In this document: positions 2,776 through 31,518 of the stretch, in pieces
How positions within the stretch are numbered: the first letter of the stretch is position 1
How the letters are laid out: each line of letters begins with the position of its first letter
Assembly (NCBI GenBank): GCA_002269645.1
Contig: NIVC01000525.1
Location: 124,001 to 188,000, forward strand
DNA length: 64,000 nt
DNA from: Macrostomum lignano
Taxonomy: Eukaryota
Direction: 5' to 3'
The notes under the pieces: model-generated
What the model saw: only the letters and a program-made list of their open reading frames with translations
Databases searched by the model: none
What the model was told of the DNA's origin: nothing
Made by a program: the position numbers and the translations under genes

Positions 2776-2887
2776 GGCCGTTTCTATTGGCAACACACGC
2801 ATGTAAGTCGCTATTGGACGGAATAGTAGTCACGTGACTGCTCTCAGCCAATAGCGACTTACATGTGTGTTGCCAATAGAAACGGCC
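2776..2887. promoter_or_regulatory. Palindromic element: four CCAAT boxes around a central GTCACGTGAC E-box, ~425 bp upstream of the SLC35B2 ATG
   Basis: Arms 2776-2817 and 2848-2887 are near-perfect inverted repeats. ATTGG at 2786 and 2813, CCAAT at 2848 and 2873, GTCACGTGAC at 2829-2838. Confidence 0.5.
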
Positions 2888-3019
2888 TAAGGATAGATTT
2901 AAGTATATTTAGTAGTTATATTTAGTAGTAGTGCGCATACATTGAATTTAATCCAAGATAGGTATGTCAATGTAACGGAGCTTTTGTCTATGGTAGCAAG
3001 GCTGGCACAGCGGCATTTA

Positions 3020-4290: not shown

Positions 4291-4720
4291 ACGCTCGTGA
4301 GCCATTGGAGATACTCCTGCCCCCTTGCAACCGTCGGCGGGTTGTTGCGTACCGCTGGGATGTCAGCATCTCTCTACCAACAATTATCAGTCGCTTTTCC
4401 AGAGCTCTGCTGATGGTCGAAATCTGATAACCAACCGGAACTGTTCCTTCAACTTCTGCTGCATTTCTGCACTGTCAACAAAGGGTTTCTCAACTGCATT
4501 GAGTAGCAGTTGGACCTGAGGCTCTCGCAACTTGCCTTGGCAATTGCCACTCTTTTGCAGGCAACCTCTGCCGGCAGAGTTTCAACGCGCTGATGGTTGC
4601 TGTAAACCATCTTTTCTTTTACATTCAGCAACCTTGCAATGTCTTTTGGGTGTTCACCTCTGTCGAGTGCTTCGATCACAAGCCAATGGCATTCGTTGGC
4701 ACAGCACATGGTCCACAATT
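4290..4720 (-). pseudogene. Tc1/IS630-like transposase fragment (HTH domains only, frameshifted, no DDE domain)
   Basis: Helix-turn-helix-like segments across at least three frames; sequence runs into the 20-bp array where the DDE domain would begin. Confidence 0.6.
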
Positions 4721-5294
4721 GTGGGGCTGATCTTGCTCCTCCGCAGCAGTTGCAAATGAAGCTATGGACCAAATTGATGCTTTTTGAAATGCCGCTGTGC
4801 CAGCCCTGCCACCATAGACAAAAGCTCCATTACATTGGCAAACGTATCTCGGATTAAATTCAATGCGCGTATGCCCTAATGGGCTGCAAAAAGCTATATT
4901 CAGTATATACACAATATAAATAAATAGGCTAAAGTACACAGCAACTGACCAAATAACAAAATTAAACAAAGATAGTATGAAAGTTTCTCTCAAACACTGA
5001 ATAGTAACACCGCAGTTTCTAGGTAACAACATGATTAATCTAGGAATAACTGAGCTAATCTACTACACAAAAATATGAATAAAAATATGCCATGCAGAAA
5101 ACAACTCACTGGCTGGTTTAGTTTTCAATTTGGGCAGAAAGGACTAAAAATAATGTTTTATAAATAAAATAATTGATTTTTTTCACTAATTCTAGTAGTT
5201 GCGTAGGGCACAGACTAACACATATTATCCATGAAATATATTTTTAAATATTATACTGTGACAAAAGCACAACAAAAATTATATGAATCACAGT

Positions 5295-6485
5295 GATGCA
5301 ATCAGGTGAGCAAAAATCGCACAGCGATGCAATCAGATGAGCAACAATCTCACAGTGCTACAATCAGGTGAGCAACAATCTCACAGTGATGCAATCAGGT
5401 GAGCAACAATCTCAGTGCTACAATCAGGTGAGCAACAATCTCACAGTGCTACAATCAAGTGAGCAACAATCTCAGTGATGCAATCGATGAGCAAAAATCA
5501 GAGTGCTGCAATCAGATGAGCAACAATCTCACAGTGATGCAATCTGATGAGCAACAATCTCACAGTGCTACAATCAGGTGAGCAACAATCTCACAGTGCT
5601 GCAATCAGGTGAGCAACAATCTCACAGTGCTGCAATCAGGTGAGCAACAATCTCACAGTGCTGCAATCAGGTGAGCAACAATCTCACAGTGCTGCAATCA
5701 GGTGAGCAACAATCTCACAGTGCTACAATCAAGTGAGCAACAATCTCTGTGATGCAATCGATGAGCAAAAATCAGAGTGCTGCAATCAGATGAGCAACAA
5801 TCTCACAGTGATGCAATCTGATGAGCAACAATCTCACAGTGATGCAATCAGGTGAGCAACAATCTCACAGTGCTGCAATCAGGTGAGCAACAATCTCACA
5901 GTGCTGCAATCAGGTGAGCAACAATCTCACAGTGCTGCAATCAGGTGAGCAACAATCTCACAGTGATGCAATCAGATGAGCAACAATCGCACCGTGATGC
6001 AATCAGATGAGCAACAATCTCTGTGATGCAATCGATGAGCAAAAATCAGAGTGCTGCAATCAGATGAGCAACAATCTCACAGTGATGCAATCTGATGAGC
6101 AACAATCTCACCGTGATGCAATCAGATGAGCAAAAATCACAGTGCTGCAATCAGATGAGCAACAATCTCAGTGATTCGATCAGATGAGCAACAATCTCAC
6201 AGTGGTGCAATCAGATGAGCAATAATCGCACAGTGATGCAATCTGATGAGCAACAATTTCAGTGATGCAATCTGATGAGCAACTATCGCACAGTGATGCA
6301 ATCAGATGAGCAATAATCGCACAGTGCTGCAATCAGATGAGCAATAATCGCACAGTGCTGCAATCTGATGAGCAACTATCGCACAGTGATGCAATCAGAT
6401 GAGCAATAATCGCACAGTGCTGCAATCAGATGAGCAATAATCTCAATGATTCAATCAGATGAGCAACAATCTCACAGTGCTGCAA
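5295..6485. repeat. ~31-bp minisatellite (GCAATCAGGTGAGCAACAATCTCACAGTGCT)n
   Basis: Direct periodicity with 29-31-bp variants. Confidence 0.93.
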
Positions 6486-6535
6486 GATCAATATCAAGCT
6501 TCGAATAAAAACCGGATAGCCCAGTCTGCACTAAC

Positions 6536-6747
6536 CAGATATGCACCTGACGCAGAGTCAGGTCTCCAATCCTAGCAATCAGCCGCTGTCGCAATAAGCC
6601 CAACCTGCTAGCGGCAGCCGCAGCAGGTGAGAAGGAGGCCACATAGCTGTAGTAGTCAGAGCCGCTTGCGCCAGCTCCGTCTAGCTGCGACAGTCGGCTG
6701 TGATGCGACCGCCGCTGTTGGGTGGTAGCGCCCAGACAGCCGTTCAT
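6536..6747 (-). CDS. Candidate coding exon, possibly an alternative first exon of SLC35B2
   Basis: GC-rich open frame from ATG 6747 to a TG|GTTAGT phase-2 donor, compatible with the phase of the acceptor at 1450; no recognisable homology. Confidence 0.3.
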
Positions 6748-7237
6748 TGCTCAGTGGGAAAACTGCGGAACCTTTTCTCCCGCCGGCTGGAAATACGCGG
6801 TGCAGTTGCCGGTTATAACTTATCGACTATCGCATGCAGTGTGCATGGCATGAGAGACGGAATGGATCGCTTACATGTATATTACTACTAGTGTGCATTA
6901 CTTCACTGAGCCGGTTGAACCAATAAAAGAATATAGGGAGCAGAGACAGAATAGAAGGGAGTAAGACAATAAGAAAAAATGAACTGAATGGGAGTCCATT
7001 TTTTTGACGACTGCTTTGCAAAGAAGCAGCTGCTGACTCTCTATCCCTCTATCCACTGCTGTCAAGAGTCGACAAATGCGAGAGCGCCTATATGCGCACA
7101 CAAGTGGAAATTTTGTATATAGCTAGATTTTGAGCCCAATTTCAATCCCCGTTACGATTGATAATGTAATTTATAGGCGAATTATGATAAAACCGACAGA
7201 AATTCAGTCTCAAGGTGTGCAAACTTGGAGCAAGCAT

Positions 7238-7885
7238 AAAGGGAACGTTTATCTATATCAGGGGTCGGCAAACTTGTTTACCTCAAGTGCCAGATAGAGA
7301 AGATATAGATAAAGGGAACGTTTATCTATATCAGGGGTCGGCAAACTTGTTTACCTCAAGTGCCAGATAGAGAAGATATAGATAAAGGGAACGTTTATCT
7401 ATATCAGGGGTCGGCAAACTTGTTTACCTCAAGTGCCAGATAGAGAAGATATAGATAAAGGGAACGTTTATCTATATCAGGGGTCGGCAAACTTGTTTAC
7501 CTCAAGTGCCAGATAGAGAAGATATAGATAAAGGGAACGTTTATCTATATCAGGGGTCGGCAAACTTGTTTACCTCAAGTGCCAGATAGAGAAGATATAG
7601 ATAAAGGGAACGTTTATCTATATCAGGGGTCGGCAAACTTGTTTACCTCAAGTGCCAGATAGAGAAGATATAGATAAAGGGAACGTTTATCTATATCAGG
7701 GGTCGGCAAACTTGTTTACCTCAAGTGCCAGATAGAGAAGATATAGATAAAGGGAACGTTTATCTATATCAGGGGTCGGCAAACTTGTTTACCTCAAGTG
7801 CCAGATAGAGAAGATATAGATAAAGGGAACGTTTATCTATATCAGGGGTCGGCAAACTTTTTGACCTCAAGTGCCAGATAGAGAA
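7238..7885. repeat. 73-bp tandem repeat (9 copies), each containing a hAT-type terminus CAGGGGTCGGCAAACT
   Basis: Period 73 (7238, 7311, 7384...). The same TIR occurs inverted at 56164-56179. Confidence 0.9.
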
Positions 7886-8729
7886 CCTAAAGCATGACTG
7901 TGGGCCAGAGGAGAGAGAGGAGAGGGAATAGAGAAGAGAGAAGAGTTAGGGAAAGGAGGCGAGGGAATCAAGGCAACGAGAGGAGGGATTAAATCGAAAA
8001 GGGGAGAAGAGAGAGATAAGGGAGAGAAGAGGAGAGAGGAAAGGAGTGCAGAGAGGGAGAGATGAGGAGAGGAGATGAGCAGATAAGAGAGAAGGGATCT
8101 GAGATCAACAATATATAACCGAAAGTCACAAAAGACTTATTCACATTGCCTAGGGCAGCATTAGAAAATAAACATTCTATTTTGCTTTCTAAATCAGCTC
8201 TGCAAAAATGTTCCCAAGCAAATATCAATTGACTACTGTAAGTAGTTAATTGGGAAAGTAATAACGATCAGCACAGAAAGATACAAAAATGCTTTATACA
8301 ATGAGATGGACTGACTTTATATTAATGAAAAGTAATATTTAAGATTGCAGTTTAACAATATAGTGTTTACCTTGCATAGAATATATAAATTAATAGTCAG
8401 GTGTCAACAAGCTTGGCTCTAGCACTTGTATTATAAGAATGCCACAATATTTTAATTATAAAGTCATAGTTACTAATGCCATTTATTCAAAATAATATTA
8501 ATTTTTGCTTAGGTTTTTTCATAAGTAAGTAGCATAGCCAGGGCAAATCACTAATGACTATATGTATGGGTCTAATATATAAATCCAAATTATTATCAAA
8601 ATATAAGCTTGTCTCTTTCTACTCTCCCTTTTAGTTTTAACACTCTAGAGTTTCAACTTCATTGAATTTCTAGTTATATTGCCAATATAAAGAATGAAAG
8701 CTAAGACTAGTTTAATTTTATGCTAAATT

Positions 8730-9150
8730 AAAGGTTAGCAATCTTTGGCCCTAGGGCCAGATCTAGCCTCTGAAGCCTTCCAATCTGGCCCTAAGGCCCT
8801 TAATGATAAAGGATTGCATTTGGCCCCTTGCTATTTCACTCCACCTTCTTTCTTTTTCTCTTTCTCATACTCACCATTTTTATCCATATATTGGCCTTTT
8901 ATGGGGGTGCTCTGAGTGTTTCTAGGAGGTAATTATTGGGGTTGAAATAAGAAGAGATAGAACAAGGCATGTTCTGGGGTAAGGGAACCTAAATGGTTGG
9001 ATGAGATTAAGGTTTTGATCATCATCTATTGAGAAAATTGTTTATTTAAACTGGCATGAAACAATTGTAGTTTTTCACTTTTTTGTTATTGGCCACTAAG
9101 CCCTTAAAAATTGCTTTTTGGCCCTTGCTCTGAAAAGGTTGCCAATCCTG
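8730..9150 (+). mobile_element. Degenerate hAT (Charlie-like) MITE
   Basis: Starts AGGTTAGCAATCTTTGGCCCTAGGGCCAGATCTAGCC and ends GGCCCTTGCTCTGAAAAGGTTGCCAATCCTG, resembling decayed Charlie-type ends. Confidence 0.4.
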
Positions 9151-9704
9151 TATTAAACCTTTATATTAAACTCTCAATGTAAAACTTAGCATATTAGGTT
9201 TTAGTTTTAATATGTTGATTTGATTTGCAATATACTAGTAAGGATAGGTTTTAACATGTTGACTATGATCTAGTTTAATATCTTGACTTGGTTCTTTTTT
9301 AAAGCATTAACTAGATTCTAAATATTTTGATAAAAGATATCTTATATTTATATTTGGCATATAGCAATTCAATTTTTAAGATTTGCTAGTCTTTTTATGA
9401 ACAATTATAATTGGAAATAAAATTAAATTAGAAAGCCTATATATAGCTATAATATGTATAAATATTAATAATTAAAAATAATTTTTTTGTTTTTAAAGAT
9501 TATATAGTCCTAACAACTTTTATGCAAATTAGATTTCATGCAAATCAAATTAGATTTAACTAGCAATCTTCGCCCCCCGATGGGGGACATCTGGATAGAA
9601 TCTCTGTTCTCTACAAGTAACAAAAAGACAGCCAGAAAATCCTTCACAAAGAGCCAGACAAACTGCTCAAATGAAGTGAATTGCAATAAGAAATCTTCCC
9701 AAGA

Positions 9705-10340
9705 CCACAAGCATCCCCCAGATAGCAAGCATTCCCCAGATAGCAAGCATCCCTCAAATAGCAAGCATCCCCCAGATAGCAAGCATCCCCCAGATAGCAA
9801 GCATCCCCCAGATAGCAAGCATCCCCCAGATAGCAAACATCCCCCAGATAGCAAGCATCCCCCAGATAGCAAGCATTCCCCAGATAGCAAACATTCCCCA
9901 GATAGCAAGCATTCCCCAGATAGCAAGCATCCCTCAGATAGCAAGCATACCCCAAATAGCAAGCATCCCTCAGATAGCAAGCATCCCTCAGATAGCAAGC
10001 ATCCCCCAGATAGCAAGCATCACTCAGATAGCAAGCATCCCTCAGATAGCAAGCATCCACCAGATAGCAAGCATCCCTCAGATAGCAAGCATCCCCCAAA
10101 TTGCAAGCATCGCCCAGATAGCAAGCATCCCCCAGAAAGCAAGCATCCTCCAAATAGCAAGCATCCCCCAGATAGCAAGCATCACTCAGATAGCAAGCAT
10201 CCCTCAGATAGCAAGCATCCACCAGATAGCAAGCATCCCTCAGATAGCAAGCATCCCCCAAATTGCAAGCATCGCCCAGATAGCAAGCATCCCCCAGAAA
10301 GCAAGCATCCCCCAAATAGCAACCATCCACCAGACAAAAA
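9705..10340. repeat. 18-bp minisatellite (GATAGCAAGCATCCCCCA)n
   Basis: Direct periodicity; gives the DSKHPP repeat ORF. Confidence 0.93.
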
Positions 10341-10429
10341 GTAGCTAGAGCGACAATTTCCTTAGCTTTATAGTGGCTCCTTTAAATTGGCATGGCGCTT
10401 TATACCTTTACATTTGAAATTGTATATCT

Positions 10430-12305
10430 TGAATGTTTGACATGGTGGCTCTTTTATGTTTGACATGGTGGCTCTTTATTGTTCGACATGGTGGCTTTTT
10501 TATGTTTGACATGGTGGCTCTTGTATGTTCGACATGGTGGCTCTTTTAATGGTCGACATGGTGGCTCTTTAATGTTCTTCATGTTGGCTCTTTTATGTTT
10601 GACATGCTGGCTTTTTTATGTTTGACATGGTGGCTCTTTTATGTTCGACATGGTGGCTCTTTTATGTTCTACATGGCTGCTCTTTTATGTTCGACATGGT
10701 GGCTCTTGTATGTTCGACATGGTCGCTCTTTTGGGTTTGAAATGGTGGCTCTTTAATATTTGACAAGGTGGCCCTTTAATGTTTAACATGGTGGCTCTTT
10801 AAATTTCGAAATGGTGGCTCCTTAATTTTCGAAATGGTGGCTGTTTTATGTTTGACATGGTGGCTCTTTAATGTTCGACATGGTGGCTCTTTAATGTTCT
10901 TAATGGTGTCTGTTTTATGTTTGACATGGTGGCTCTTTATTGTTCGACATGGTGGCTCTTTAATTTTCGAAATGGTGGCTGTTTTATGTTTGACATGGTG
11001 GCTCTTTAATATTTGACAAGGTGGCCCTTTAATGTTTAACATGGTGGCTCTTTAATTTTCGAAATGGTGGCTCCTTAATTTTCGAAATGGTGGCTCTTTT
11101 ATGTTTGACATGGTGGCTCTTTAATGTTCGACATGGTGGCTCTTTAATGTTCGACATGGTGGCTCTTTAATGTTCTTAATGGTGTCTGTTTTATGTTCGA
11201 CATGGTGGCTCTTTTATGTTCGACATGGTGGCTCTTTAATGTTCGACATGGTAACTCTTTTATGTTTGATATGGTGGCTCTTTTATGTTCGACATGGTGG
11301 CTCTTTAATGTTCGACATGGTGGCTCCTTTAGGTTTGAAATGGTGGCTCTTTAATGTTTGACATTGTGGCTCTTTTATGTTCGACATGGTGGCTCTTTTA
11401 GGTTTGACATGGTGACTCTTAAATGTTTGACATGGTGGCTCTTTAATGTTTCACATGGTGGCTCTTTAATATTTGACATAAAGTCACATATATGTTTGAC
11501 ATGGTGGCTCCTAAATGTTTGACATGGTGGCTCTTTAATGTTCGACATGGTGGCTCCTTAATTTTCGAAATGGTGGCTCCTTAATTTTCGAAATGGTGGC
11601 TGCTTTATGTTTGACATGGTGGCTCTTTAATGTTTGACATGGTAACTCTTTTATGTTTGATATGGCTGCTCTTTTATGTTCGACATGGTGGCTCTTTAAT
11701 GTTCGACATAGTGGCTCCTTTAGGTTTTAAATGGTGGCTCTTTAATGTTTGACATTGTGGCTCTTTTATGTTCGACATGGTGGCTCTTTTAGGTTTGACA
11801 TGGTGACTCTTAAATGTTTGACATGGTGGCTCTTTAATGTTTCACATGGTGGCTCTTTAATATTTGACATAAAGTCACATATATGTTTGACATGGTGGCT
11901 CCTAAATGTTTGACATGGTGGCTCTTTATGTTTGACATGGTGGCTCTTTTATGTTCGACATGGTGGATCTTTTTTGTTCTACATGGTAACTCTTTTATGT
12001 TTGATACGGTGGCTTTTGAATGTCTGACATGTTGGCTCTTTTATGTTTGACATGGTGGCTCTTAATTGTTTGACATAGTGGCTCTTTAATGTTCAAAATG
12101 GTGGCTCTTTAATGTTCGAAATGGTGGCTCTTTAATGTTCGAAATGGTGGCTGTTTTATGTTTGACATGGTGGCTCTTTTATGTTCGACATGGTGGCTCT
12201 TTAATGTTCGACATGGTAGCTCTTTAATGTTCGACATGGTAGCTCTTTTATGTTTGACATGGTAACTCTTTTATGTTCGATATGTTGGCTCTTCTATGTT
12301 TGACA
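10430..12305. repeat. ~23-bp minisatellite (TTTGACATGGTGGCTCTTTAATG)n
   Basis: Direct periodicity, diverged copies. Confidence 0.93.
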
Positions 12306-12359
12306 TTGCGCTTCTTTGATGTTTAGCAGTTTTGTTGTGTTTTTAAGGTGTTTTAATAA

Positions 12360-12922: not shown

Positions 12923-14294
12923 TTAAGAAGTCATCTATTACTTGAAAATACATTAGCTTGCTATATTAGCTAGTATTATTATTTCTAAGTCTAAACAATA
13001 AAAAGAATATATTTTAATAAAAAAACCTATACGAGTATATGCCCAATTTAAAAAATTTACTTGCTTTGCTGCAATTTAGTTTTTGCCTCTGGTTGCAACT
13101 TAGTTGTATCTGGCTATAATATGATCTCTGCTTTGTTTTATCATTTTTCTCTATCTTCATCTTTATCTTTTATTTGCCTTTTTTCTTCTCCTTTTGTCCA
13201 ATTTTTGGGTTTTTAACTTACTTTGGCTAGACCTCTTGCCACCTATCCAAATTAGCCAGGTTGGCTAGATGTTGGGCATGTATAAACACACACCCTTATA
13301 GATAATAAAATATGGTTTATAGATAATACTTAACTTGTCTTAGGCTTAATGCAAGTCTTAGGCTTAGGCTTTTTGTCTAAGTCACTTTGACCATCTATTA
13401 CCTTATGTTCCTAAGGAATTAGCTGATTAGATAAGATATTTAATTTAAGAGTGAAATATTTTATCTGATCATTCTTTTCTGTATCTGTCTCAATTAAAAT
13501 AATAGGGTCTGGTTGCTTACCTTCTATGCCTAGCCTGCTCTTTAAAAAAATGTCTAGAAGATAAAAATCTAATTTAAAAGTAGAAATACCAAAAAAGACT
13601 AAAATACAAATTAAAATAAAAATGTGAGATAAAATGTTAATGTAAGATTAGGGGCAATCCTTCAGTTTACAAACACCTATTTTGCTAATTTCAGTTTATG
13701 ATCACATTATAAGTTTTTTTTGCTCATTGTAAAACATAAAAACTGACAGTAGTTTTAAATGATTGTAAATGTTTTCTAATGTCAAATGTTTTCAAATGTC
13801 AGTTTGCTAGTAGCTTATATATCACCTTTGCTTTACGATCACCCAAATGTATAGCTTGTATTTCTTATTAAAATGATTGCAAACCAAAGCTGGCTATAGA
13901 AAAGTATATCAAATAGTCACAGAAAACTGCTGTCATTCTAGATCAAAGGCATTGATATATGAAATATTGAGACCACTATACTGTGGCTTCCAATTCCATG
14001 TTATACTTTTTCTATAAACTCTCAAATAGAAGCATAATGGAAATGGAAGCTCTTAGCCTTATTAAAATTAATCTTTGGTGCTATATCCTTTCACCTTTGG
14101 TTTATTATGATCATTTCCATGCACGTATTCTATTGAAATGATTGCAAACTAAAGCTGACAATACCTTTACCTTTATATGGAGTATATGGGCATTACCTTT
14201 ATAGTATTAACTTTTACCTAGCTCTTTGGTTTATAATAATTTTTATGTGCATTACATACTCAAATGATCGTAAACCAAAATTGATAGTGATATA

Positions 14295-18394: not shown

Positions 18395-18744
18395 TCTTCC
18401 CCTCTACTTTAAACATCTCGCATTCCTTTCGGTTTACAATCACCTATTTTTTGCCACTTTTGGTTTAACGACCACCTTAAAATATTATGCTCAAATGCTC
18501 AAATCAAAAAAAGTAAATAAAAAAACAAAAAATATGCAAAGTTGAAAGTGCGGTTTGTTAGATGATGCTTATATATCAGCTTAGGTAAATGATAATTTAA
18601 AAGTGTAACGCAAATAGAAATTATTGTAAACCAAAGCTGGGTTAAAATTAATAATGTACATAATGCACATGCACTTAGGGTAAAGGTAATTTGCCAGCTT
18701 CGGTTTGCAATCATTTCAGTAGAGTTCATGTATGGAAGTGATCG

Positions 18745-19446
18745 TGTTGTGCCCGGGTGCATCACTTGCACCGATGAGCAATCTCTGGCTTTCGGTCAAG
18801 TGTGCCCGGCACTGCACACTCCCACCCCTCCCGGCCGCGTGCCTGCGTCAACCCCCCCTCTTTCTGACTGCGCCAAACTCCCCCCCCCAGTTGTGGCTGG
18901 CCTGGCCCCTCTGCCCCCCCCCCTTTTTGAGCACTTGTCAATTCCCCTCTTTTTTTGCTATATGCGCTACCCCTCCCTCAAAGGTGATTGGCCAACAAGT
19001 TGGTATTGCTCTGGGTTGTTGATAATGCTGTCTGGCGTGAAACCCTAGGGCTTACGCCAGGCAGCCTAAATAAATAGAGAACTGCTGGTGGCGGGGGGGG
19101 GGGCAAGGTGAGCGGTTGCTGTTGACGTCTGCCACTACAGAATCAATAAACTTCAACTGTGTGATGTCGAAATCTCAATACTACTATACAACCGAATTCG
19201 CCGCCTTGCCCACCGCCGTGCTGATTGGAAGTCATAAGTAAGACTCGCATCTGTATTTATTAATCATTTGGGACTCGTGTAAAGTGGGTACCGTACGCTC
19301 TAGGGACGGACTAATTGCCTTACCTCGACGCGATCCCACGCTCAGTAGCGGAGTCAGTCCGGTCAGTGGGCTGGCGCCAACTCCCAGGCTCGTTCGCTGC
19401 AGAATATTCTTAGGAAGCTGGTACGATCACGTGCAGTGACACAACA
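18745..19446 (+). repeat. 5' LTR (702 bp)
   Basis: Direct repeat of 25805-26554; TAAATAAATA near 19068, AATAAA at 19145. Confidence 0.93.
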
Positions 19447-19447
19447 T

Positions 19448-19465
19448 TGGTGCCGTGACCAGGAT
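19448..19465 (+). promoter_or_regulatory. Primer-binding site, tRNA-His type
   Basis: TGGTGCCGTGACCAGGAT, one base after the LTR; 16/18 match to the complement of the eukaryotic tRNA-His 3' end (TGGTGCCGTGACTCGGAT). Confidence 0.85.
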
Positions 19466-19612
19466 AGTTTAAGGGTTAGTTTACTAGTAGAGAACCTGGG
19501 TTGTACTTTTATGATCTAGCAGTTTCGAGTGCACTTGATCTTTAGTCTGATTTTCTGCCTAGACTGCTTGTAGTTGAATCTTTTCGTCTTGCTTCTCTTC
19601 GTCGCCGCCATA

Positions 19613-20525
19613 ATGGCCAACATCGATGCCCTAATTGACGCACTGGGCGCCAGAGTGCAGAACCAAATGAATATCGGACAGAGAGTCCCCAGACCGTCAA
19701 AGTTTGCCCTTGGACAGGACTTCCAAATTTGGTTCCAACAGTTTACAGCGTACTGTGAGGCTGCAGAAATCCCCGAGGAAGATAGGAAACAACACCTACC
19801 TAGTATGATGGACTTCAACTCAGCTTACCGAGCCATTGCCAACCTTGAGTTGCCAGACAATCTAGAGTTTGACGATTTTGTTGAGCGCCTTTCACAGCGA
19901 TTTAACCAGAATCACACTCCACAAGACAGTAAGATCGAACTGAGGGTCGGGACCACAAGAAGGTTGAATCTGTGGAAGACTATGCCGACGCCCTTCGAGA
20001 AATTGTCCGCCGGGCCTATCCGAACCTGCCGGTGGAACAGAGAGATGATTTTGCAAGAGACCGGTTCCTGCTAGGTGCCAGAATCGCTGATAGAATCCGT
20101 GAACACTTGCTACTGGTAGAATCCGGGTACCCTCGACGCAGCTTGTAGGCGTGTAAAGGCAGAGTATACATCCCTCCGCACAGCTCAATCGAGCACTGAG
20201 AAACCTTGGCCCTCAGCGAACGTATCCGCAAGTAACACGCAAGATGAGGCAGTCAGACTCCGCGAAGAGCTGAAAGAACTGAGAGCGGAGCTGCAAGTCC
20301 TGAAGGCTGGATCGGGAACTGGAGTCCGCTATCATAAGCACCCTAATCCCCAACCTTCCCAGGCTGCAGCACCAGCTCAGAGAACTTTCCAGTGTGGTCG
20401 TTGCCTTGAGACCACCCACGCGACTCAGCAATGCAGAAATCCTATAGTTTGCAATTACTGCAACCGGTCCGGTCACAAACGGGCCAGGTGTTTTAAACTG
20501 CAGAGAGACCAGCAGCAGACGGGAC
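19613..20525 (+). pseudogene. gag: gag, frameshifted, with two Zn knuckles
   Basis: MANIDALIDALG...FQIWFQQFTAYCEA...ESVEDYADALREIVRRAYP...CGRCLETH...CNYCNRSGHKRARC across at least three frameshifts. Confidence 0.85.
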
Positions 20526-23500
20526 AGGTCAGTTGTCGTGCCCTCTGCTGACGGTACCGTCCCTGTCAAGATTACGAATGTGTCGGGAGAACCTGTAGTA
20601 CTGACAAAAGGAAAGGAGATTGGCTGGTTCTCTCCCGTCCATGGCAGCCAACCAAATCATGATGAAGCACCCAAGGCACAAGTTAAACAGGTCTCTCTCG
20701 ACAAAGACTGGGATCCTGTAGAGCATCTGGGCAGCTGGGACTCGCCGGACTTGTCTGAAGACCAGCAGATGTCGATCATAAAGTTGATCCGTCAGAACAG
20801 AGATGTCTTCGCCAAGGACGATAGCGAGCTGGGTTCAACTGACCAGGCAATGCATACCATAGACACCGGGGACGCCAGGCCAACTAGAGAACCACCACGC
20901 CGCATCCCGCCGCACATAAGGCCAGAAATCGATAAAGAAATCGACAGGCTAATAGACTGCGGTAGGATCTGCGAGTGTCAATCCCCGTGGGTTAGCCCGG
21001 TCGTACCTGTACGGAAGAAGGACGGATCCATCAGGCTGTGCCTGGATTATCGCCGGCTAAACGAAGTAACCAATCCTGACCCATTTCCGCCGCCGTGAAT
21101 GGATGAAACTTTAGAGGCACTTGCAGGAAATGCTATTTTTTCAACTCTAGACTTGGCTTCAGGCTATCACCAGTGCTCGCTAGATCCTAAAGACCAACTT
21201 AAAACGGCATTTGTAGTTCCAAATAGAGGTCAGTTCGCCTGGCGATATGTGAGTTTTGGGCTAAGAAATGCCCCGGCGACTTTCGTCAAGCTGATGAACC
21301 TTGTCGTCATGGCTGGTCTGACATGGAGAGAGTGTCTTGTATATTTCGACGATATAATAGTTTTTTCAAAGTCTTACGAAGAGCATTTCGAGCGGCTGCA
21401 GCATGTTTTCGATCGCTTACGAACTGCTGGGATCCGCTTGAAAGCCAAGAAATGCCATTTCTTGTCCAAGAAAGCCAAGTTCTTAGGGCATGTCGTATCG
21501 TCTGAAGGTATTGCGACAGATCCTGCGAAGACAAAAGAAATTCGAAACTGGCCCACACCCAAGAATATAAAAGAACTGCAGTCATTTTTGGGGCTCTGCT
21601 CCTACTACAGAAATTTCGTGAATGACTTCTCAGTAAAGGCAGCCGCGTTGTTCAAGCTCATGCGCAAGGACTCACAGTTTATTTGGGGCCCAGAACAACA
21701 GCAGGCGTTTTCCGAACTCAAGCAATCGCTAACATCAGCGGAGATCATGGCCTATCCAGACTTTTCCGAGGGAGCTGGACCGTTTGTGCTGGACACCGAC
21801 GCCAGCTCAAAGATTGGGATCGGTGCAGTCTTGTCACAATGCCAACCCGATGGGTCAGAGCGCGTCATTGCCTATGGATCCAGGTCGCTGGCAGATTGTG
21901 AAAGAAACTACTGTACTACCAGACTAGAACTCCTAGCGATAGTTCACTTCGTAAAGCTGTACAAGTACTATTTGCTGGGAAGGAAATTTAAGATACGAAC
22001 AAACCATAGCGCTCTCTCGTGGTTGACAAATCTTAAGGACGTCGAGGGGCAATGTGCTAGATGGCTTGAGACGCTGCAGCGTTACGACTTTGAAAAATCG
22101 CACAGGAAGGGAATTTTCCATCAGAATGCGGATAGCCTTTCGCGGAAAGTTAGACAGCATTGGGCTCAAGACTCGTGCCCAACATGCAGCAGTCCACCCC
22201 TAGTTAAAGAACAGGTAAACGTAATGCTGGCTTGGCTGCTAAACAAAGATCATGTCAAGGAGGTTTAAAGTCAAGATCCAGCCCTGGTACGAATAAGGCA
22301 GTTTTTAGATGGCAAGGACACGCAGATAGACCCAATCATCAGTCCAACCATGAGAGAAATCTGGGCCCACCGAAATAGATAGAAGTGGACGATGAACTCT
22401 TCCTAATTCGAGTTCCAGGCACCTCGCGAAAAAAAATAGTCTTGCCTGACTGTCTCTTCGAGGAAGTCGCCAAAATCTTACACGATGGTGCAAGCGGCTG
22501 TCACCCAGGAATTAAAAAACCCAAGCGAAATTCAAACAGCGATTTTGGTGGCCGGGACTGTTCCGCAAGGTTGAAGAGTCCTGCCGGACATGCCTCGTGT
22601 GCTCAAAGTGCAAGCCAGGGCAAAGAAACAAAGCACCTCTCCAACCGATCCCAAGCTCCGCGCCGTGTCAGAGAATTATGTGCGACATAGTCGGACCGCT
22701 ACCTAAGTCAAAGAAGGGGTCAAGATTTGTGTTAACTATTCAAGATTCGTTCAGCAAGTGGCCCTGCGCTATCCCGTTGGTCAACCAGAGGGCAAAGACG
22801 GTGGCCCGTGCGATCTTCACGCACTGGATTTCATCGTTCGGCTGCCCTCGGGAGATCGTCACGGACCAGGGATCAAACTTTGAATCGGCCCTGATGAAGA
22901 GTCTATGCACGCTGTTAGACATCCGCAAATGCCGAACAACACCGTATCATCCGATGGCCGACGGCCAGGCAGAGAGTTTCAATCGCACGCTGAAGCACAT
23001 GCTGATGTGCCAGTTAGAGCAAGAGAATAAGGACTGGGAAGACTGCATCGCCCCAAGCCTGCTAGCATACCGCTCAAGCGTGCACAGAGGCACTGGATAC
23101 ACGCCGCATTACACCATGTTTGCCCGAGAGATGCAGCTCCCTGTTGATATAGATTTCTTAAGTGAGCGGATACCTGAGAGTTACCCAGAGTTCACCCATC
23201 GCTTAGCTGACAATCTTCAGCGGGCGCATGAGGCAGTGAAGGAGAACCTCAGAACCTACCAGCGGAAACAGAAGGAGTTCTACATGTACGACGGTCGGGC
23301 TCGCGGCGTTGAAATTTGAGAGGGAGACCTGGTTTTAGAGTATGATCCGGTGATAAAACCAAACGAAATACCGAAGTTCCACCGTTACTGGAAAGGTCCA
23401 GCGCGAGTCTTAGAGAAAGTTTCCGATGTAAATTTCTAAATAATGCACGAAGGGGCTCGTAGGCCGAGAGTCGTGCATTCCAATAACTTAAGGAAAGTCG

Positions 23501-23781
23501 ACGCAAACTCCAGGCAATGGCGTCCGCCGGCTCGGGAAAAACGTCGTGCAGAGGGTAGGGTCAAGGACCCTGAGCGACACTCCCGCCGGGCACCACCCGA
23601 CCCCCCGTTGCCGACCGAGCAGACCGCTGCGTATGACGATGACGAACCGGATGCCATTTGGGCTCGAAGAGTGACCCACCCGAAAGGTCAGACGGAACCT
23701 CCTCCGGTACACCAAGCCCAGCTCGTGCTAATAGGGGCGTCCCGCCTCGACGGTTCGGTAGCCCAATATTGTACTGACTGA
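20526..23781 (+). pseudogene. pol: pol (RT, RNase H, integrase with GPY/F), disrupted; protease missing
   Basis: RT: SPWVSPVVPVRKKDG, YFDD. RNase H: VLDTDAS, LELLAI. INT: HHCC, CDIVGP / TDQGSNF / QAESFNRT, WKGP. In-frame stops at 21096, 22266, 23317 and 23437; frameshift near 22520. Confidence 0.92.
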
Positions 23782-23975
23782 GCTGGGCACCTGAGCAGCC
23801 CAGTCAGGGCGTTGAGTCAAATAAAAACAATAAAAATTAATAAAAATCGTCAGAAATATGTGCTACGTGAGAGTTCTCAAGTGCGCTCGGAACTGCTGTG
23901 TACCGTATGGGTAAATAATACAAATAGCTGGTTACTGTACGCGTGGGTTAGTGGCAGAGTTACTCTGGAGACCCT

Positions 23976-24377
23976 GTGCCGAATCGGCCTGCCATTGCAG
24001 TGTCAGATCTTTACGACCTGCTGGGTGTGGAACGGTCAGCGTCCCAGAGGCAAATAAAGTCGGCGTTCCGGCAGCGCTCCTTGGCGATGCACCCCGACGA
24101 AGTCGGAATCGGAGGTACAAAGGCGTTTCAGAGAATAGTTTTCGCGCACTCTGTCCTGAGTGACCTATTTTACAGGGCTCTGTATGATAAGTTCGGAGAA
24201 GCAGCAATGTCAAACACCCTGGCTTACGCGCAGCTTTTCAGCCCCCCGCAAGGGGTCAGTTTCCCGAGTGAAGTGAAGGAAGGGTTGGAGCGAATGGGGT
24301 TCGTTGTGATCAGTGATGACGAAGGCGAGTCTGACTCACTGCCAACCGAAGTCGCGAACCGGGAGGCTGGGTCATGA
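23976..24377 (+). CDS. Retrotransposon-encoded J-domain (DnaJ/Hsp40-type) protein with acidic SIM-like tail
   Basis: DLYDLLGVERSASQRQIKSAFRQRSLAMHPDE...TKAFQRIVFAHSVLSDLFYRALYDKFGE matches the J-domain pattern; HPD at 24090-98. Frame open from 23952, GTG start. Confidence 0.85.
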   Translation: MPNRPAIAVSDLYDLLGVERSASQRQIKSAFRQRSLAMHPDEVGIGGTKAFQRIVFAHSVLSDLFYRALYDKFGEAAMSNTLAYAQLFSPPQGVSFPSEVKEGLERMGFVVISDDEGESDSLPTEVANREAGS

Positions 24378-25693
24378 CTGTCAAGCGCACTGGCCCGCAG
24401 CGAGTCCCGGAGGTAATCGAAGCCTCGTATCGCAAGCTGAGGAACCAGCTGGCTCAACATTTGCGAGTTGGTCGACTTGCTCAGGCGCAGGAGTGTCTAG
24501 AAGGACTAGAGAAGCTGTTCTTGGCTGAAGACCTAGAACCCCGCAGGTGGTTGTCCGATGCGATAGGAGTTGCGCTTAGTTTCATCGCGTCAGACGTGTC
24601 GCCGCGGAAGCATCGCCAGGGGTCGACCAGAAGGGGCCGTCGAGTTTTGTCAAACGAAGCGCTGACCGCATCGATCGGCTTCGTGTTGTCCTGTATTAAG
24701 AGGCGGGACCTCTTGGACGGTGGGGTGTTGCTAATGAAGCTGCGCGAGCTAACAGTGTTTGTAGCCCCGGACCAGGGGTGTGAAGATCGGGCGGAGAAGA
24801 GCGTCGATGAGGTCAACGCCGCGGACGTCCTCGACCTGGACTGCCCGCAAGAGGATCTGGGCGGTGATGCTGCAGATGACCTACTGGGAAGTGCGACCTC
24901 GTCGGAAGAAGCTCGGACGGACGAACTGATAGATGCGCACGCCTTCTTGTTGCGTCTGAACGCATGGGCCGGTGGTCTGTTTCTAGACGGCATGAAAGTC
25001 TGTGTCACGGTGGTAAATTCGCCATTCTATCTTCGACCTTCGAATGCCGCAACCGCTCGACTAATCGAAGACACTCGAGTCCACTTCGCGCTTGGCCTGA
25101 GGGCCGCTGCAGCGCCGCTTGCACCTGTATTAGAAGCAAATCTGCGGCGTTTCGTTGCGGGCTAGTGGCCGAGGGTAGTAGCCATCGGAGAAGCGGAGCT
25201 GGACAGGCGAACGGGCACGATTGAGTGGGATCAGCAGGAGGCCGCATTGCGGCTACAGGTGCAGCTTGCAAAGGGGCGGGATCTACCCCTGCTGGTCCAG
25301 CTGCGCGAGAAACGGAGCGGCCGTATCGAGTCAGATGGGACGGCCTGGCATCAATTCTTACGGCTTTTGGTCGAGTGCGGCTTTGAGAACGGACGCATCT
25401 TGGTGACCGAGTCGTCAGATTGGCCGGGTGATCGTCTTGAGCTCTACCTGGCGTCGTTACCGGGACTCAAGTTTGAGTTCACTGCTCGGGTCACGCACAG
25501 TCGCTGGCATGCCAAGCGAGTCGACAGGATACTGCTGGAACGCCTGCTCGTCGCGTTGTCTGCGCCGTTCTCGGGGAATCCGGGGAAGCCGACTGATGTC
25601 CGGGCAGCGGCGGCCTGGTTAGCGGAAGTGCGTCGTGACTTTTCCCTGTTGGCTCAGCTAGTTGCAAATGCGCGTGAATTTTATAAACTTTGA
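24374..25693 (+). CDS. Accessory ORF of unknown function (~439 codons, one in-frame TAG at 25163-65)
   Basis: ORF-track ORFs 24374-25165 and 25247-25693 are in the same frame, with no stop between 25166 and 25246; ATG overlaps the J-ORF stop (ATGA). Confidence 0.6.
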
Positions 25694-25804
25694 AGGGGTG
25701 ATTTGGGTGCAGCTAATTCTAATTCGGTTTTGTCAGTTCTTGTAATCCTGTTCAAATAATTTTCAGTCTATGGTATGAACCCACTTTTTGTGGTGGGGTT
25801 GTGG

Positions 25805-26554
25805 TGTTGTGCCCAACTGCACTTGCACCGATGAGCAATCTCTGGCTCTCGGTCAAGTGTGCCCGGCACTGCACTCCCACCCCTCCCGGCCGCGTGCCTG
25901 CGTCAACCCACCCCCCCTTTCTGACTGCGCCAACCCCCCCCCCCCCAGTTGTGTGTCAGCCCCTTATTATCTGCTCCCTTTTTCTTATTATGCCTTCCCA
26001 GCCGGATTGGCTGGCCTTGCCCCTCTGCCCCCCCCTTTTTGAGCACTTGTCAATTCCCCCCTTTTTTTGCTATATGCGCTACCCCTCCCTCAAAGGTGAT
26101 TGGCCAACAAGTTGGTATTGCTCTGGGTTGTTGATAATGCTGTCTGGCGTGAAACCCTAGGGCTTACGCCAGGCAGCCTAAATAAATAGAGAACTGCTGG
26201 TGGCGGGGGGGGGGCAAGGTGAGCGGTTGCTGTTGACGTCTGCCACTACAGAATCAATAAACTTCAACTGTGATATCGAAATCTCAATACTACTATACAA
26301 CCGAATTCGCCGCCTTGCCCACCGCCGTGCTGATTGGAAGTCATAAGTAAGACTCGCGTCTGTATTTATTAATCATTTGGGACTCGTGTAAAGTGGGTAC
26401 CGTACGCTCTAGGGACGGACTGATTGCCTTACCTCACGCGATCCCACGCTCAGTAGCGGAGTCAGTCCGGTCAGCGGGCTGACGCCAACTCTCAGGCTCG
26501 TTCGCTGTAGAATATTCTTAGGAAGCTGGTACGATCACGTGCAGTGGCACAACA
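25805..26554 (+). repeat. 3' LTR (750 bp)
   Basis: Direct repeat of the 5' LTR plus a ~56-bp extra segment (25952-26007). Confidence 0.93.
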
Positions 26555-28423
26555 ATCGTAAACAAAAGATGAGGGGGGATTTTGATGCCCTCGATTTGGA
26601 ATGAGCAGCATGGTTTTCTGCATGTCACTATTTGTTGCATTTGACATGCTTTCCTACAGCCAGCTTTTGGTTCACAATCATTTCAATTCAATGAGCAACA
26701 CATGTAGGTGATCGTAAACCGAAGACCTGGAATATAAGCTACGACAGTCTTACCATCTTTTAAAATAAACAAAGTCAGTTCGCCAACTTTTGATTTCTTT
26801 TCATTGGAAACCACCGTCAGGTTTTATGTCTCACAACTGTTTTTAGTGGTGATCGTCACTGTTTGAGGTGATTGTTAACCAAAGGAATGCCAAAAATCTT
26901 AGATCTATCATTGTGCTATAATGGCAAATGTTCTTAATCTTATAGGGCCTACTAGGCCTAATTGAGTAACTAATAAGCAATAAATTGCTTGTCTCAGACT
27001 TAGTCTTATAATAATAGATTAATCTATCCAATATAGGCCTATTAGGCCGGTTCCTAGTCATTTCGTCATCATCTCGGGTGTCTGGGGTGCTCACCTCGAC
27101 TAGGGTCAGTTCGTCATCTTAATTAGCATGCACTACCTGAAGAGAGTCATTTCGTCATCCACCAATCATATTAGTTCTAGGGGCCTAACTTCCAAGTGAA
27201 TTAATGTGGCAACTAAACATATTTATTTGGAATCCTAATTATCCCAGTCATTTTGTCATCTCGATTGATAAAACCTGTCGATCGATCGGTTCTGCTTGCT
27301 GCACCTTATAGTTAAAAAAAAGCAAAAAATAGTTTTACACTAACTCGAATCTTACACGATTAATTGGTTGATGACGAAGTATCCAGCATCTGCATAACTA
27401 AATATTTGGTCACTTCGTCATATTATTTTTCAAAGCTACTTTGCTTCTGGTAACTTCCTCATCTGATATGACGAAATGGAATATGACGATCTGACCAGTG
27501 ACCATTAGGCCTAATATAAGAACTCCAATGAGATTTAAAAATTCGGCCTTATTTTTTAATATTTTTATTTAATTTGATAAATCTAATTTGTATAAATACA
27601 AAGAAAAATTGGTCAAGTCATCAAAAGCTTACAAAATTTATATTAAAAAATTGTTTTTTTATTGTGTATTTTCCATTACTAGGCATTGTCATTTGCTCTT
27701 TAAATCATTTTTGCTTAAAAACTTCTTTTTGCTATTTTTGTTTAAATTTGTTTAACTAGGCCTAACTTCTATGCCTAGCCTAGTTTGTCATCTTTTTGCT
27801 TTTTATCATTTATTTATTCATGAACATTAGGCCTAGGCTTAATATAGCCAAAATAGTCAAAACTTTTGCAACAAAGCCTAAATTGCTAAAATTAAAAAGG
27901 TCAGTCTTAAACCTAAAATTAAAAAACCCAATGCCAAAATGAATACTAAGATGCAAAGTGGCATTAATAAAAAGTTTAAAAATTAAGAATATTCCTATAT
28001 CTTTAATTTGCTCCTAATATTGCTCTGACTTTGAGCTTCTAACCTAAGTCCTAAATTCCCAATGTACTGCATTGCTAGTCTATTCAATTCTATCTCATTT
28101 TAGATCAACCATGGACAATTTAATTCTTTTTTAAGTTTGGTAAATTTGGTATTAATCTAAAAAACAGGGTGTCAATTTGGTATTAAAGGTCCAAATCTAA
28201 GATGTCAAAAAATCAGGATGCCATGGCACTCATGCCAAAAAACCAGATAGATGCCAAGCAAACATTCTAAAATATGAGGCAATATATTGTGCCATAGGCC
28301 TAGCTAAAATCTTATGCATCTTGGCTAATTGGCAAATTTGAATTTTCAATGTGATTTAATAATATAACATATTTTCTGAGATGATGCTTACTGTATTATA
28401 TTTGCTAGATATATATATGACAC

Positions 28424-29215: not shown

Positions 29216-29745
29216 CAAGATTTTTTGAGAAAAACTTCAAAAAAGCTTCAAAGCTTTCAAAAAGAGCTTTTTAGACTTCAGAAAGAGGAAGTAAAAAAAT
29301 TATATATAAGACTTTCCTCTCTCTTTCTCTACTTGGTCAATCTAAGACCCTTTGATATAATCTTCATACATCAGCTTTGGAAATGACACCTTGGCAAATT
29401 TCTGCTAGAATTATTATTCAAATAGAGACAATGATATAGGCTTATAATATAAGCATGGGTCTTATTTGATATAAAACCCATGAATCTTTGTCAAAATCGT
29501 CAATAAATTTTTAGTATATGGAGTTGCATAGACATGTTGATTAAAAAAATTTAATTTTCGCAATTAAATAAATGATGGAATTTCCTAGGACTATATGCCT
29601 ACACTAAGGGTTATTTCCCCAAAACAGTATTTGGTCTGTAAAAATTTAGCCATGCAATTCCTTATATTGAAAATATTTGCATTATTTCATGGCTGACAAA
29701 CAGCAGCTACATGTGTTGGGTGTGCATTAGATAGAGCTTCACTGG

Positions 29746-31518
29746 ATGCTGAAGCGGCGCATCATCATCCGGGACCTGGTGCTGCCAGGCCACATCAAGC
29801 GGGCTCGCCAGTCCAATGATGGCAACGAATCGGGCTCGGATGGCGAAGTTTGGCCCAGCGTCCAGCGCCTCCTGACGCTGTTCCCAGCTGACAGCTTCAA
29901 GCCAGCTCTGCCCCGCATCGCCTTGAAGCACCAGCTGTACAGCCTCTGTCTGCGACGGGCTTGCATCGATCAGGAGCTTCAGCAGCTGCGCGACTCCGGC
30001 CGGCTGCGAATGTTTAAAATTGGCGGCGAAACTGACGAAAGATTCGCTCTGATGCTGTCTGAAGAATTCGAAGCTTTTGCCCGGACTCGGCAAGGCCGCC
30101 TGCCAGATGTGGTCTTCAGTGAGCGCCAGTTCACTGTGTACTTTTATGTAATTCAGGTGCATTAGCATCTGACACAGACTGTATCAGCAGGTGCATTGGC
30201 ATCTGACACAGTGTAAACAGGTGTATTAGCATCTGACACAGAGAGTGTCAGCAGGTGCATTGGCATCTGACACAGTGTAAACAGGTGTATTAGCATCTGA
30301 CACAGACTGTATCAGCAGGTGCATTGGCATCTGACACAGACTGTATCAGCAGGTGCATTGGCATCTGACACAGTGTAAACAGGTGTATTAGCATCTGACA
30401 CAGACTGTATCAGCAGGTGCATTGGCATCTGACAGTTTTTCAGCAGGTGCATTAGCATTTGAGGCATGGTTTAAAAGTTGAATACTTAAATACGAGTACA
30501 AAGCATCATTTAATTGCATACACCAACCACTGCCAGGAAGGTACCTCAATCTGGTGCTTCGTGAGACCACAGACCTCAGTGTGACCCCGGGCCCGAATCT
30601 GCCCTTCTCTGATACGGAAATCTCCGATCTGGTGCAGGCCGGCTTCCTCACTGTGCGCGACTTCGGCTGCTACTGGGTGGCCTGTCCTGACATGGGCCGC
30701 TTTGTCAGCGTCTACCGAAAGATGCGCGTCAGGATTCTGCGGACTGTACGCCGCACCAAGTTCAAGGAGATGCTGCGCTCGGTAGGTTGCTAGGATTTAT
30801 TTGCATGGCTTCGCTGAAGTATTCAAAATCACACGAGCCGAACTGCAGTGTTTTGCTGAGACCTCTCCAAATGTTGCTCGGGCCGCCAGCCTCCCAGATC
30901 CTCAGTTGCTGAGCCAGCCTCCCAGATCCTCAGTTGCTGAGCCAGCCTCCCAGATCCTCAGTTGCTGAGCCAGCGTCCCAGATCCTTAGTTGCTGAGCCA
31001 GCCTCCCAGATCCTCAGTTGCTGAGCCAGCCTCCCAGATCCTCAGTTGCTGATCCAGCCTCTCAGATCCTCAGTTGCTGAGCCAGCCTCCCAGATCCTCA
31101 GTTGCTGAGCCAGCGTCCCAGATCCTCAGTTGCTGAGCCAGCCTCTCAGATCCTCAGTTGCTGAGCCAGCCTCCCAGATCCTCAGTTGCTGAGCCAACCT
31201 CCCAGATCCTCAGCTGCTGAGCCAACCCCCCAGATCCTCAGTTGCTGAGCCAGCCTCCCAGATCCTCAGTTGCTGGGCCAGCCTCCCAAATCCTCAGTTG
31301 CTGGGCGGCCACCCTCAACAGTCTGGGCCGGTAAATTTTATCCAAGCTGATCATGTGTAACGAATCCTAATGAAAGACCCGCCTCCCATTTCCAGGAGCT
31401 GGAGACCCGCCTGCCGCAGTCGTCTCCGCCTTTAGAGTACATGATGCACGATCTGGTTGGCGATGGCACTCTCCGGGCCATCGATACAACCTCCGGCGTG
31501 CTCTATCGACTGCCGTAG
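29746..31518 (+). CDS. STK19: STK19-like protein (winged-helix DNA-repair factor), 246 aa; exons 29746-30118, 30537-30781, 31396-31518
   Basis: GT-AG introns with consistent phases (1, 0). LFPADSFKPALPRIALKHQLYSL, FSDTEISDLVQAGFLTVRDFGCYWVACP, HDLVGDGTLRAIDTTSGVLYRLP match STK19. Confidence 0.88.
30160..30450. repeat. ~30-34-bp intronic minisatellite (GCATCTGACACAG core)
   Basis: Direct; STK19 intron 1. Confidence 0.85.
30886..31305. repeat. 28-bp intronic minisatellite (GCCAGCCTCCCAGATCCTCAGTTGCTGA)n
   Basis: Direct; STK19 intron 2. Confidence 0.92.

What the first reader, a model, noticed from the sequence alone, without database searches (positions are those of the whole stretch)
23952..25693. 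Ty3/gypsy retrotransposon carrying a J-domain (Hsp40) co-chaperone cassette in the env position
Seen: between integrase and the 3' LTR lies an intronless ORF with a full J-domain (helices I-IV, intact HPD), followed by a long second ORF; neither has a signal peptide or TM segment. Known: J-domains stimulate Hsp70 ATPase through HPD. Polyomavirus T antigens use a J-domain to remodel host complexes, and pestiviruses capture DNAJC14. I know of no LTR retrotransposon family encoding one. Inference: an element-encoded module that recruits Hsp70 for particle assembly or uncoating, or for dismantling silencing complexes.
Basis: partly seen in the sequence, partly recalled or inferred. Interest (0 to 1): 0.92.

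Follow-up and report, generated by a model that had tools for sequence, protein, structure and literature searches.

The report
Retrotransposons carrying their own Hsp70 co-chaperone
A whole group of jumping genes in a flatworm carries an extra, conserved gene built around a J-domain (the part that switches on the cell's Hsp70 chaperone), which may let the element turn the host's chaperone against the machinery that silences it; the copy in this window is itself broken.

Summary
The window has a complete-ended Ty3/gypsy element (LTRs 97.5% alike, 4-bp target duplication) with a J-domain (Pfam 55 bits, HPD) after integrase. The second ORF is a helical domain plus a TatD-like fold lacking most metal ligands. 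This copy is decayed: gag/pol breaks, a frame break after J, and one stop. The cassette is no one-off. Against a sister subfamily, synonymous sites are saturated while pN/pS is 0.21-0.29, like pol. In the same genome 94 of 150 J-like hits lie just behind an integrase. I read six families: all have J plus the same helical domain, five have HPD, one adds a chromodomain and three add the TatD-like domain. ORF3 and pol trees share their main split. A splice acceptor precedes ORF3 in 6 of 6, as for env. Named relatives are only Macrostomum lignano proteins. Function is inferred: most likely a nuclear Hsp70-recruiting adaptor against host silencing (0.45), otherwise particle or RT chaperoning (0.25). 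Against: one young family lost HPD and another spread without J. I found no report of this in 10 literature searches.

The parts
18741..18744 (+). 5' copy of the 4-bp target-site duplication
   Evidence: same 4 bases at 26555-26558
18745..19446 (+). 5' LTR (TG...CA)
   Evidence: 674 of 691 aligned columns identical to the 3' LTR
19237..19243 (+). candidate splice donor (A|GTAAG) in the 5' LTR; inferred
   Evidence: A|GTAAG at the same relative place in 5 of 5 A/B-type leaders examined, with different upstream bases; no RNA joint seen
19448..19465 (+). primer-binding site
   Evidence: directly after the 5' LTR; same motif in L043, L024 and L033
19613..20551 (+). gag, broken by frameshift and stops; zinc knuckles
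20526..23781 (+). pol (RT, RNase H, integrase), broken; protease region deleted
   Evidence: Pfam RVT_1, RT_RNaseH, rve, Integrase_H2C2; about 640 nt gap against L033-L036
23995..24000 (+). candidate splice acceptor directly before the J-domain; inferred
   Evidence: one TT[AG]CAG per interval examined, 0-16 nt before the J start, in 6 of 6 families
24006..24188 (+). J-domain with HPD at 24090-24098
   Evidence: PF00226 55.1 bits; pN/pS 0.21-0.23 vs subfamily B
24300..24323 (+). hydrophobic core plus acidic tail resembling a SUMO-interacting motif; post hoc pattern
   Evidence: 4 of 6 families; 0.7-2.3% of shuffles; 0 of 6 gag/pol controls
24374..24377 (+). J stop overlapping the ORF2 start (frame break in this insertion; one frame in subfamily B)
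   Evidence: L021 is the same insertion site
24410..24751 (+). clade-specific helical domain with a basic loop; no known family
   Evidence: leave-out profile from three other families scores 38.7 bits vs best shuffle 6.9; no Pfam hit in this copy
24923..25693 (+). TatD-like domain, probably catalytically dead; in-frame stop at 25163-25165 in this copy
   Evidence: pN/pS 0.29
25786..25804 (+). degenerate polypurine tract
   Evidence: cleaner in sister copies
25805..26554 (+). 3' LTR

Best explanation
The cassette is the third gene (ORF3) of a clade of Ty3/gypsy retrotransposons, most likely of Macrostomum lignano. SHOWN: a modular protein of J-domain, acidic linker and clade-specific helical domain, with a TatD-like fold (window lineage) or a chromodomain (another family) added, inherited with pol and under purifying selection. 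INFERRED: it is translated from an env-style spliced subgenomic RNA; in the window's lineage the splice would form the start codon. It acts in trans as a soluble, probably nuclear adaptor. The add-on modules (SIM-like motif, chromodomain, dead nuclease fold) would select a chromatin- or RNA-bound silencing complex, and the J-domain would switch on host Hsp70 there to loosen or destabilise it, as polyomavirus T antigen does with host complexes (recalled). My odds by step: selected element gene 0.93; Hsp70 use through HPD in most families 0.65; silencing machinery as target 0.45.
For: Selection: pN/pS J 0.21, helical 0.22, TatD-like 0.29, RT 0.25, INT 0.11; shifted-frame controls 1.0-1.8. Clade-wide: 94 of 150 J hits within 1.5 kb behind an integrase hit, chance about 1.5e-4 each; four more families read directly. 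The split of TatD-bearing from other families appears in the RT, INT and ORF3 trees with support 100/100, 100/97 and 98/96. HPD in 5 of 6 families. A sister J-domain models at pLDDT about 90 and matches Ydj1 J at 1.3 A. Chromodomain PF00385 47.7 bits in L046. SIM-like motif in 4 of 6. No TM segments. Acceptor 6 of 6 and donor 5 of 5. The L046 ORF3 is a named stand-alone protein, PAA78660.1. Host J-proteins act in TE silencing: SILENZIO with HSP70 (PMC8616336, section read) and planarian DNAJA1 stabilising PIWI (PMC11663942, passages).
Against: The young L043 family (LTRs 99.85% alike, open frames) has no HPD and no SIM-like motif. Four independent recent insertions (L033-L036, LTRs 99.3-99.9%) lack J and the helical domain, so ORF3 is not needed in cis. 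Four B copies carry H-to-R in HPD. The SIM and splice patterns were chosen after seeing the sequences, and shuffles ignore that the linker is acidic. The L046 chromodomain seems to keep only two of three cage aromatics (cage positions recalled). The host J-proteins cited promote silencing, not its reversal. No localisation, binding or activity data exist.
Confidence: 0.45

Rival explanations
1. ORF3 recruits Hsp70 to the element's own particle, for Gag assembly or uncoating or for folding RT and integrase.
For: Same selection and HPD data; soluble protein without TM segment; J-proteins assist virus assembly and disassembly (recalled).
Against: A chromodomain inserted in one family and a SIM-like motif in four are hard to explain by particle work; elements lacking J spread recently.
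Confidence: 0.25
2. ORF3 is a nucleic-acid or chromatin tether that protects cDNA or steers integration; the dead TatD fold and the chromodomain are interchangeable binders and the J-domain is secondary.
For: The TatD-like fold is conserved without its ligands; L043 keeps it but lost HPD; L033-L036 keep only its C-terminal part; human TATDN2 binds R-loops (PMC10711561, abstract).
Against: The J-domain, not the add-ons, is the part shared by all six families read; three families lack the TatD-like domain.
Confidence: 0.17
3. The cassette was once useful but is now dispensable and decaying across the clade.
For: The window copy is broken; its two haplotypes differ with pN/pS 0.5-0.7, intervals spanning 1; deletions of J recur.
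Against: Open 322-, 332-, 333- and 571-codon frames recur in many listed copies of four families; long-term purifying selection.
Confidence: 0.08
4. Independent captures of paralogous host J-protein mRNAs, with the selection signal inherited from the host genes.
For: The host J repertoire was not read; 56 of 150 J hits had no integrase hit upstream.
Against: Same position, same acceptor and same helical domain in all families; trees share their main split; saturation of synonymous sites is alike in ORF3 and pol.
Confidence: 0.05

Closest known systems
Bdelloid rotifer LTR retrotransposons with non-env ORF3 (GDSL esterase, DEDDy exonuclease; PMC5408684, abstract and sections 3.3 and 4 read)
   Same: Family-specific captured domains in the env position, no TM segment, modular exchange, including a 3'-5' exonuclease fold.
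   Different: Their catalytic residues are intact and the paper reports no significant departure from neutrality within the genome; here the nuclease fold lacks its ligands, selection between subfamilies is strong and the shared module is a J-domain.
Polyomavirus T antigens (recalled)
   Same: N-terminal J-domain with HPD followed by an acidic linker with a short motif and further domains.
   Different: No homology beyond the J fold was tested or seen; the carrier is an LTR retrotransposon.
Host chromatin or piRNA J-proteins: Arabidopsis SILENZIO, planarian DNAJA1 (PMC8616336 section 2.11; PMC11663942 passages)
   Same: J-domain plus Hsp70 acting on transposon-silencing machinery.
   Different: Host-encoded and pro-silencing; here the gene is element-encoded and the direction of effect is unknown.
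TatD nucleases (PF01026; TATDN1/2/3; PMC10085689, passages)
   Same: Fold and motif order; the central glutamate motif is kept.
   Different: Both central histidines, the C-terminal acidic motif and the second N-terminal histidine are replaced.
Chromoviruses (recalled) and errantivirus env
   Same: A chromodomain in an LTR element; a third ORF probably made from spliced RNA.
   Different: The chromodomain sits in ORF3, not in integrase; ORF3 is not a membrane glycoprotein.

Membership tests
Ty3/gypsy LTR retrotransposon | LTRs with TG...CA ends, target duplication, PBS, PPT | tested here: met
Ty3/gypsy LTR retrotransposon | pol order RT - RNase H - integrase | tested here: met
   protease deleted in this copy, region present in sisters
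Named clade (Mag, CsRN1, Gmr1/Osvaldo, Mdg3) | RT tree placement with reference elements | not tested
J-domain protein | four-helix J fold | tested here: met
   Pfam full-length match; model of sister L045 against J structures
J-domain protein | HPD motif | tested here: met
   window and 5 of 6 families; absent in L043
J-domain protein | stimulates Hsp70 ATPase | not testable with these tools
   bench assay needed
Class A/B Hsp40 | G/F region, zinc finger, C-terminal peptide-binding domain | tested here: not met
   only PF00226 (and Chromo or TatD) among relevant Pfam hits in 6 ORF3s; class C-like
DnaJ-X (PF14308) proteins | X-domain after J | tested here: inconclusive
   Atlas lead at 0.76; PF14308 finds no match near its cut-off in the genome and none in 5 helical domains
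TatD nuclease | TatD profile match | tested here: met
   29.8 bits vs cut-off 27; best PDB sequence hits are TatD proteins, E 0.008
TatD nuclease | two-metal ligands (HxH, Glu, His, His, Asp) | tested here: not met
   by alignment to three canonical TatDs only the first His and the Glu remain in A/B, only the Glu in L043; ligand roles from PMC10085689; no usable model of this part
Env-bearing errantivirus | ORF3 with signal peptide and TM anchor | tested here: not met
   max KD19 at most 1.49 in all 7 sequences
Heat-inducible HSE-bearing M. lignano LTR families (PMC12801592) | canonical HSE in the LTR | tested here: not met
   0 of 6 LTRs examined have a perfect three-unit HSE; LTRs of L044-L046 not examined

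The most novel reading that the evidence does not exclude
A retrotransposon clade has evolved its own T-antigen-like, modular Hsp70 co-chaperone: a fixed J-domain with swappable targeting modules (SIM-like motif, chromodomain, dead nuclease) that points the host chaperone at transposon-silencing complexes. It would be a counter-defence protein encoded by an animal LTR retrotransposon that works through the chaperone system; I know of no earlier case (recall plus the searches listed).
Probability: 0.4. Interest if true: 0.92.

Novelty: new variant of a known kind. Interest (0 to 1): 0.8.

Why it matters
Few animal retrotransposons have a known protein that acts on the host. Here a conserved accessory gene with a recognisable biochemical switch (HPD) is spread over many young families, in what is most likely a laboratory animal with transgenesis. 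Natural variants (HPD lost, J deleted, chromodomain or dead TatD added) form a ready comparison series. That makes it directly testable whether a transposon can co-opt Hsp70, and whether it does so to fight silencing or to build particles.

Tried and rejected
Word-index homologue search with ORF2: none. Full HMMER scan of 1.84 billion representatives: 6 hits, 2 M. lignano gene models and 4 ordinary TatDs. Profile searches with J+helical (4 hits, 1 M. lignano, 3 generic J-proteins) and helical alone (2 hits, both M. lignano): no relative in another species, but these collections cover few flatworms and rarely annotate transposon ORFs. Metagenome scan: 31 loci, 0 with gag/pol, TatD-like or helical hits. 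Single-sequence model of ORF2 was unusable (pLDDT 37). The helical domain gave only generic helical matches, Z at most 8.1; the DnaJ-X lead was not confirmed. One search was circular and was replaced. Expression: no RNA holder listed; the four runs laid were contigs that behave like DNA and showed no donor-to-acceptor joint, which is no evidence either way. The stop/start overlap as programmed coupling is not supported, since both copies showing it are one insertion site. No similarity to two host TatD fragments. A Gag-ORF3 complex prediction was not run. Earlier scan findings: none. Ten paper searches showed no report of a J-domain or TatD ORF in an LTR element; I judged most listings by title and abstract start only.

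Full report
Observation. The window holds an LTR element from 18745 to 26554. The LTRs match at 674 of 691 aligned columns, the ends are TG...CA, and there is a 4-bp target duplication, a PBS and a degenerate PPT. RT, RNase H and integrase come in Ty3/gypsy order. After integrase, frame 23952-24377 matches Pfam DnaJ over the whole profile (55.1 bits) with HPD at 24090-24098. ORF2 starts at 24374, overlapping the J stop, and runs to 25693 with one in-frame stop at 25163-25165. Read with X at that stop, it matches TatD_DNase at 29.8 bits against a cut-off of 27. gag and pol are broken and about 640 nt of pol are missing. Public contigs cover both ORF3 breaks without differences. So this copy is real but dead.

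Copies. A DNA search of genome G000 gave 27 matches, and I fetched 19 larger stretches. L021 is 97% alike and its ORF2 is open, but it has the same 5' flank as the window, so it is the same insertion on another haplotype; L022 and L023 are likewise one insertion. Subfamily B (L022-L027, 67-68% nucleotide identity) has J, linker, helical and TatD-like parts in one frame, with scattered stops and one frameshift in L027. L033-L036 are four separate recent insertions (LTRs 99.3-99.9%, different flanks) that lack J and the helical domain. Counts are lower bounds and may include haplotype duplicates.

Selection (pairwise Nei-Gojobori, stops skipped). Window against subfamily B gives J-ORF pN/pS 0.21 (bootstrap 0.14-0.29, 111 codons), helical part 0.22 (0.16-0.31), TatD-like part 0.29 (0.22-0.35), RT 0.25 and INT 0.11. 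pS is 0.69-0.82, at or near saturation, so corrected dN/dS is unreliable; pN/pS is the conservative figure. The RT value is inflated by a shifted stretch in L024. The same DNA pairs read in shifted frames give 1.0-1.8. Window against L021 gives 0.5-0.7 with intervals spanning 1, as expected for decay after insertion.

The clade. The window J-domain finds 150 scored places out of 213 candidates. Of these, 94 lie within 1.5 kb behind one of 150 scored integrase-tail hits on the same strand, against about 1.5e-4 each by chance. The 56 others include the window itself, truncated copies and probable host genes that I did not read; 57 of the 150 integrase hits had no J hit. I read one member of each of four further families. 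L043 has a 571-codon frame with J-like, helical and TatD-like parts and no HPD; its LTRs are 99.85% alike. L044 (322 codons) and L045 (332) have J with HPD, an acidic linker and the helical domain. L046 (333) adds a chromodomain (47.7 bits). At least three more groups (292- and 327-codon frames, and C487) are known from positions only. RT-RNase H identity to the window is 56-64% and J identity 40-48%. A profile from the three TatD-less families finds the window's helical domain at 38.7 bits against a best shuffle of 6.9 of 1000, and L043's at 14.1. RT, INT and ORF3 trees all separate TatD-bearing from other families (100/100, 100/97, 98/96; 8, 7 and 6 rows), although two ORF3 branches are long and other forks are open. 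This fits one acquisition of J plus helical domain, inherited with pol, followed by module gain and loss.

Host and range. The only relatives outside G000 are proteins named Macrostomum lignano, one 99.7% identical to L046 ORF3, so the host is most likely that flatworm (inference). The databases label them J-domain proteins, not transposon genes. No other species was found, with weak coverage.

Expression (inferred). In 6 of 6 families a single TT[AG]CAG lies 0-16 nt before the J start. Four families have their own ATG behind it. In the window's lineage the acceptor is followed by TG, and 5 of 5 A/B-type leaders carry A|GTAAG in the 5' LTR, so a splice would form the start codon at the position of the sister families' starts. 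Subfamily B also has an upstream in-frame ATG, so this is not the only route. Gene model P0008 joins the L043 LTR to its acceptor; it is a prediction. PAA78660.1 and PAA83624.1 are stand-alone ORF3 proteins. PMC5730564 (passages) says its GenBank annotation came from RNA-seq transcripts; that these records come from it is inferred from their locus tags. I obtained no RNA junction.

Domains. The L045 model has a confident J-domain (pLDDT about 90; Z 10.9, 1.3 A to Ydj1 J) and an all-helical C-terminal domain with only generic matches. The TatD-like domain keeps the central glutamate but, by alignment to three canonical TatDs, lacks both central histidines, the C-terminal acidic motif and the second N-terminal histidine, which are metal ligands according to PMC10085689 (passages). 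It is probably a pseudo-nuclease, yet conserved. A SIM-like motif lies in the linker of 4 of 6 families (0.7-2.3% of shuffles; 0 of 6 gag/pol controls); the pattern was written after seeing it and the consensus is recalled. A basic loop is shared in the helical domain. There is no TM segment.

Mechanism. The constant part is the J-domain with the helical domain. The variable parts are reader-type modules that fit chromatin or nucleic acid. I therefore favour a trans-acting nuclear adaptor that brings Hsp70 to silencing complexes (0.45) over particle or enzyme chaperoning (0.25), tethering (0.17), decay (0.08) and repeated host capture (0.05). Host precedents link J-proteins to transposon silencing (PMC8616336 section 2.11; PMC11663942 passages on planarian DNAJA1 and PIWI; the primary papers were not held). 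Against: the HPD-less young family, the J-less recent insertions, and the absence of any functional data.

Novelty. Non-env ORF3s are known (PMC5408684, abstract and two sections read). Ten searches showed no LTR element with a J-domain or TatD. The recent survey of M. lignano LTR elements (PMC12801592: parts 1-2 of 6 read, whole text and 5 supplements searched by term, supplement 1 read) has no mention of DnaJ, TatD or ORF3 in its text; its supplement hits are transcript annotations. PMC13524379 (term search) mentions neither Macrostomum nor DnaJ. Subscription journals, Repbase and that survey's reference 16 were not visible and may mention it. Verdict: a real, selected, clade-wide and apparently undescribed accessory gene; a new variant of a known kind; interest 0.8.

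Noticed in passing
L033-L036: Recent insertions whose RT is about 92% like the window's but whose integrase tail and TatD remnant resemble subfamily B: apparent recombinants between lineages, with J and the helical domain deleted.
   Followed up: partly
L038:7228-8582: Mini-element: short LTR start, C-terminal TatD-like part, full LTR, with a 4-bp target duplication.
   Followed up: partly
L043:6020-6226: A young multi-copy family whose J-like domain has lost HPD and the acidic linker; a possible decoy or Hsp70-independent form.
   Followed up: partly
L046:3156-4154: Chromodomain inside ORF3 rather than on integrase, in an animal gypsy element.
   Followed up: partly
L045 ORF3 residues 185-315: With the J-domain left out, the Atlas still ranked a DnaJ-X cluster first (score 0.76, low); not confirmed by Pfam.
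   Followed up: partly
window 29731-30165: Probable host exon with a weak STK19 match (26 bits, cut-off 27).
   Followed up: no
window 18574-18743 and 14109-14286: The element sits in a repeated sequence with inverted relatives at 13.7-16.0 kb, possibly a MITE-like element.
   Followed up: no
window 1-12324 and 28423-63604: Many minisatellite arrays (periods 4-77 bp, up to about 1.9 kb), 37 rows from the tandem repeat search.
   Followed up: no
L040, L041: Host TatD genes with intact C-terminal motifs, unrelated to the element's domain by pairwise comparison.
   Followed up: partly
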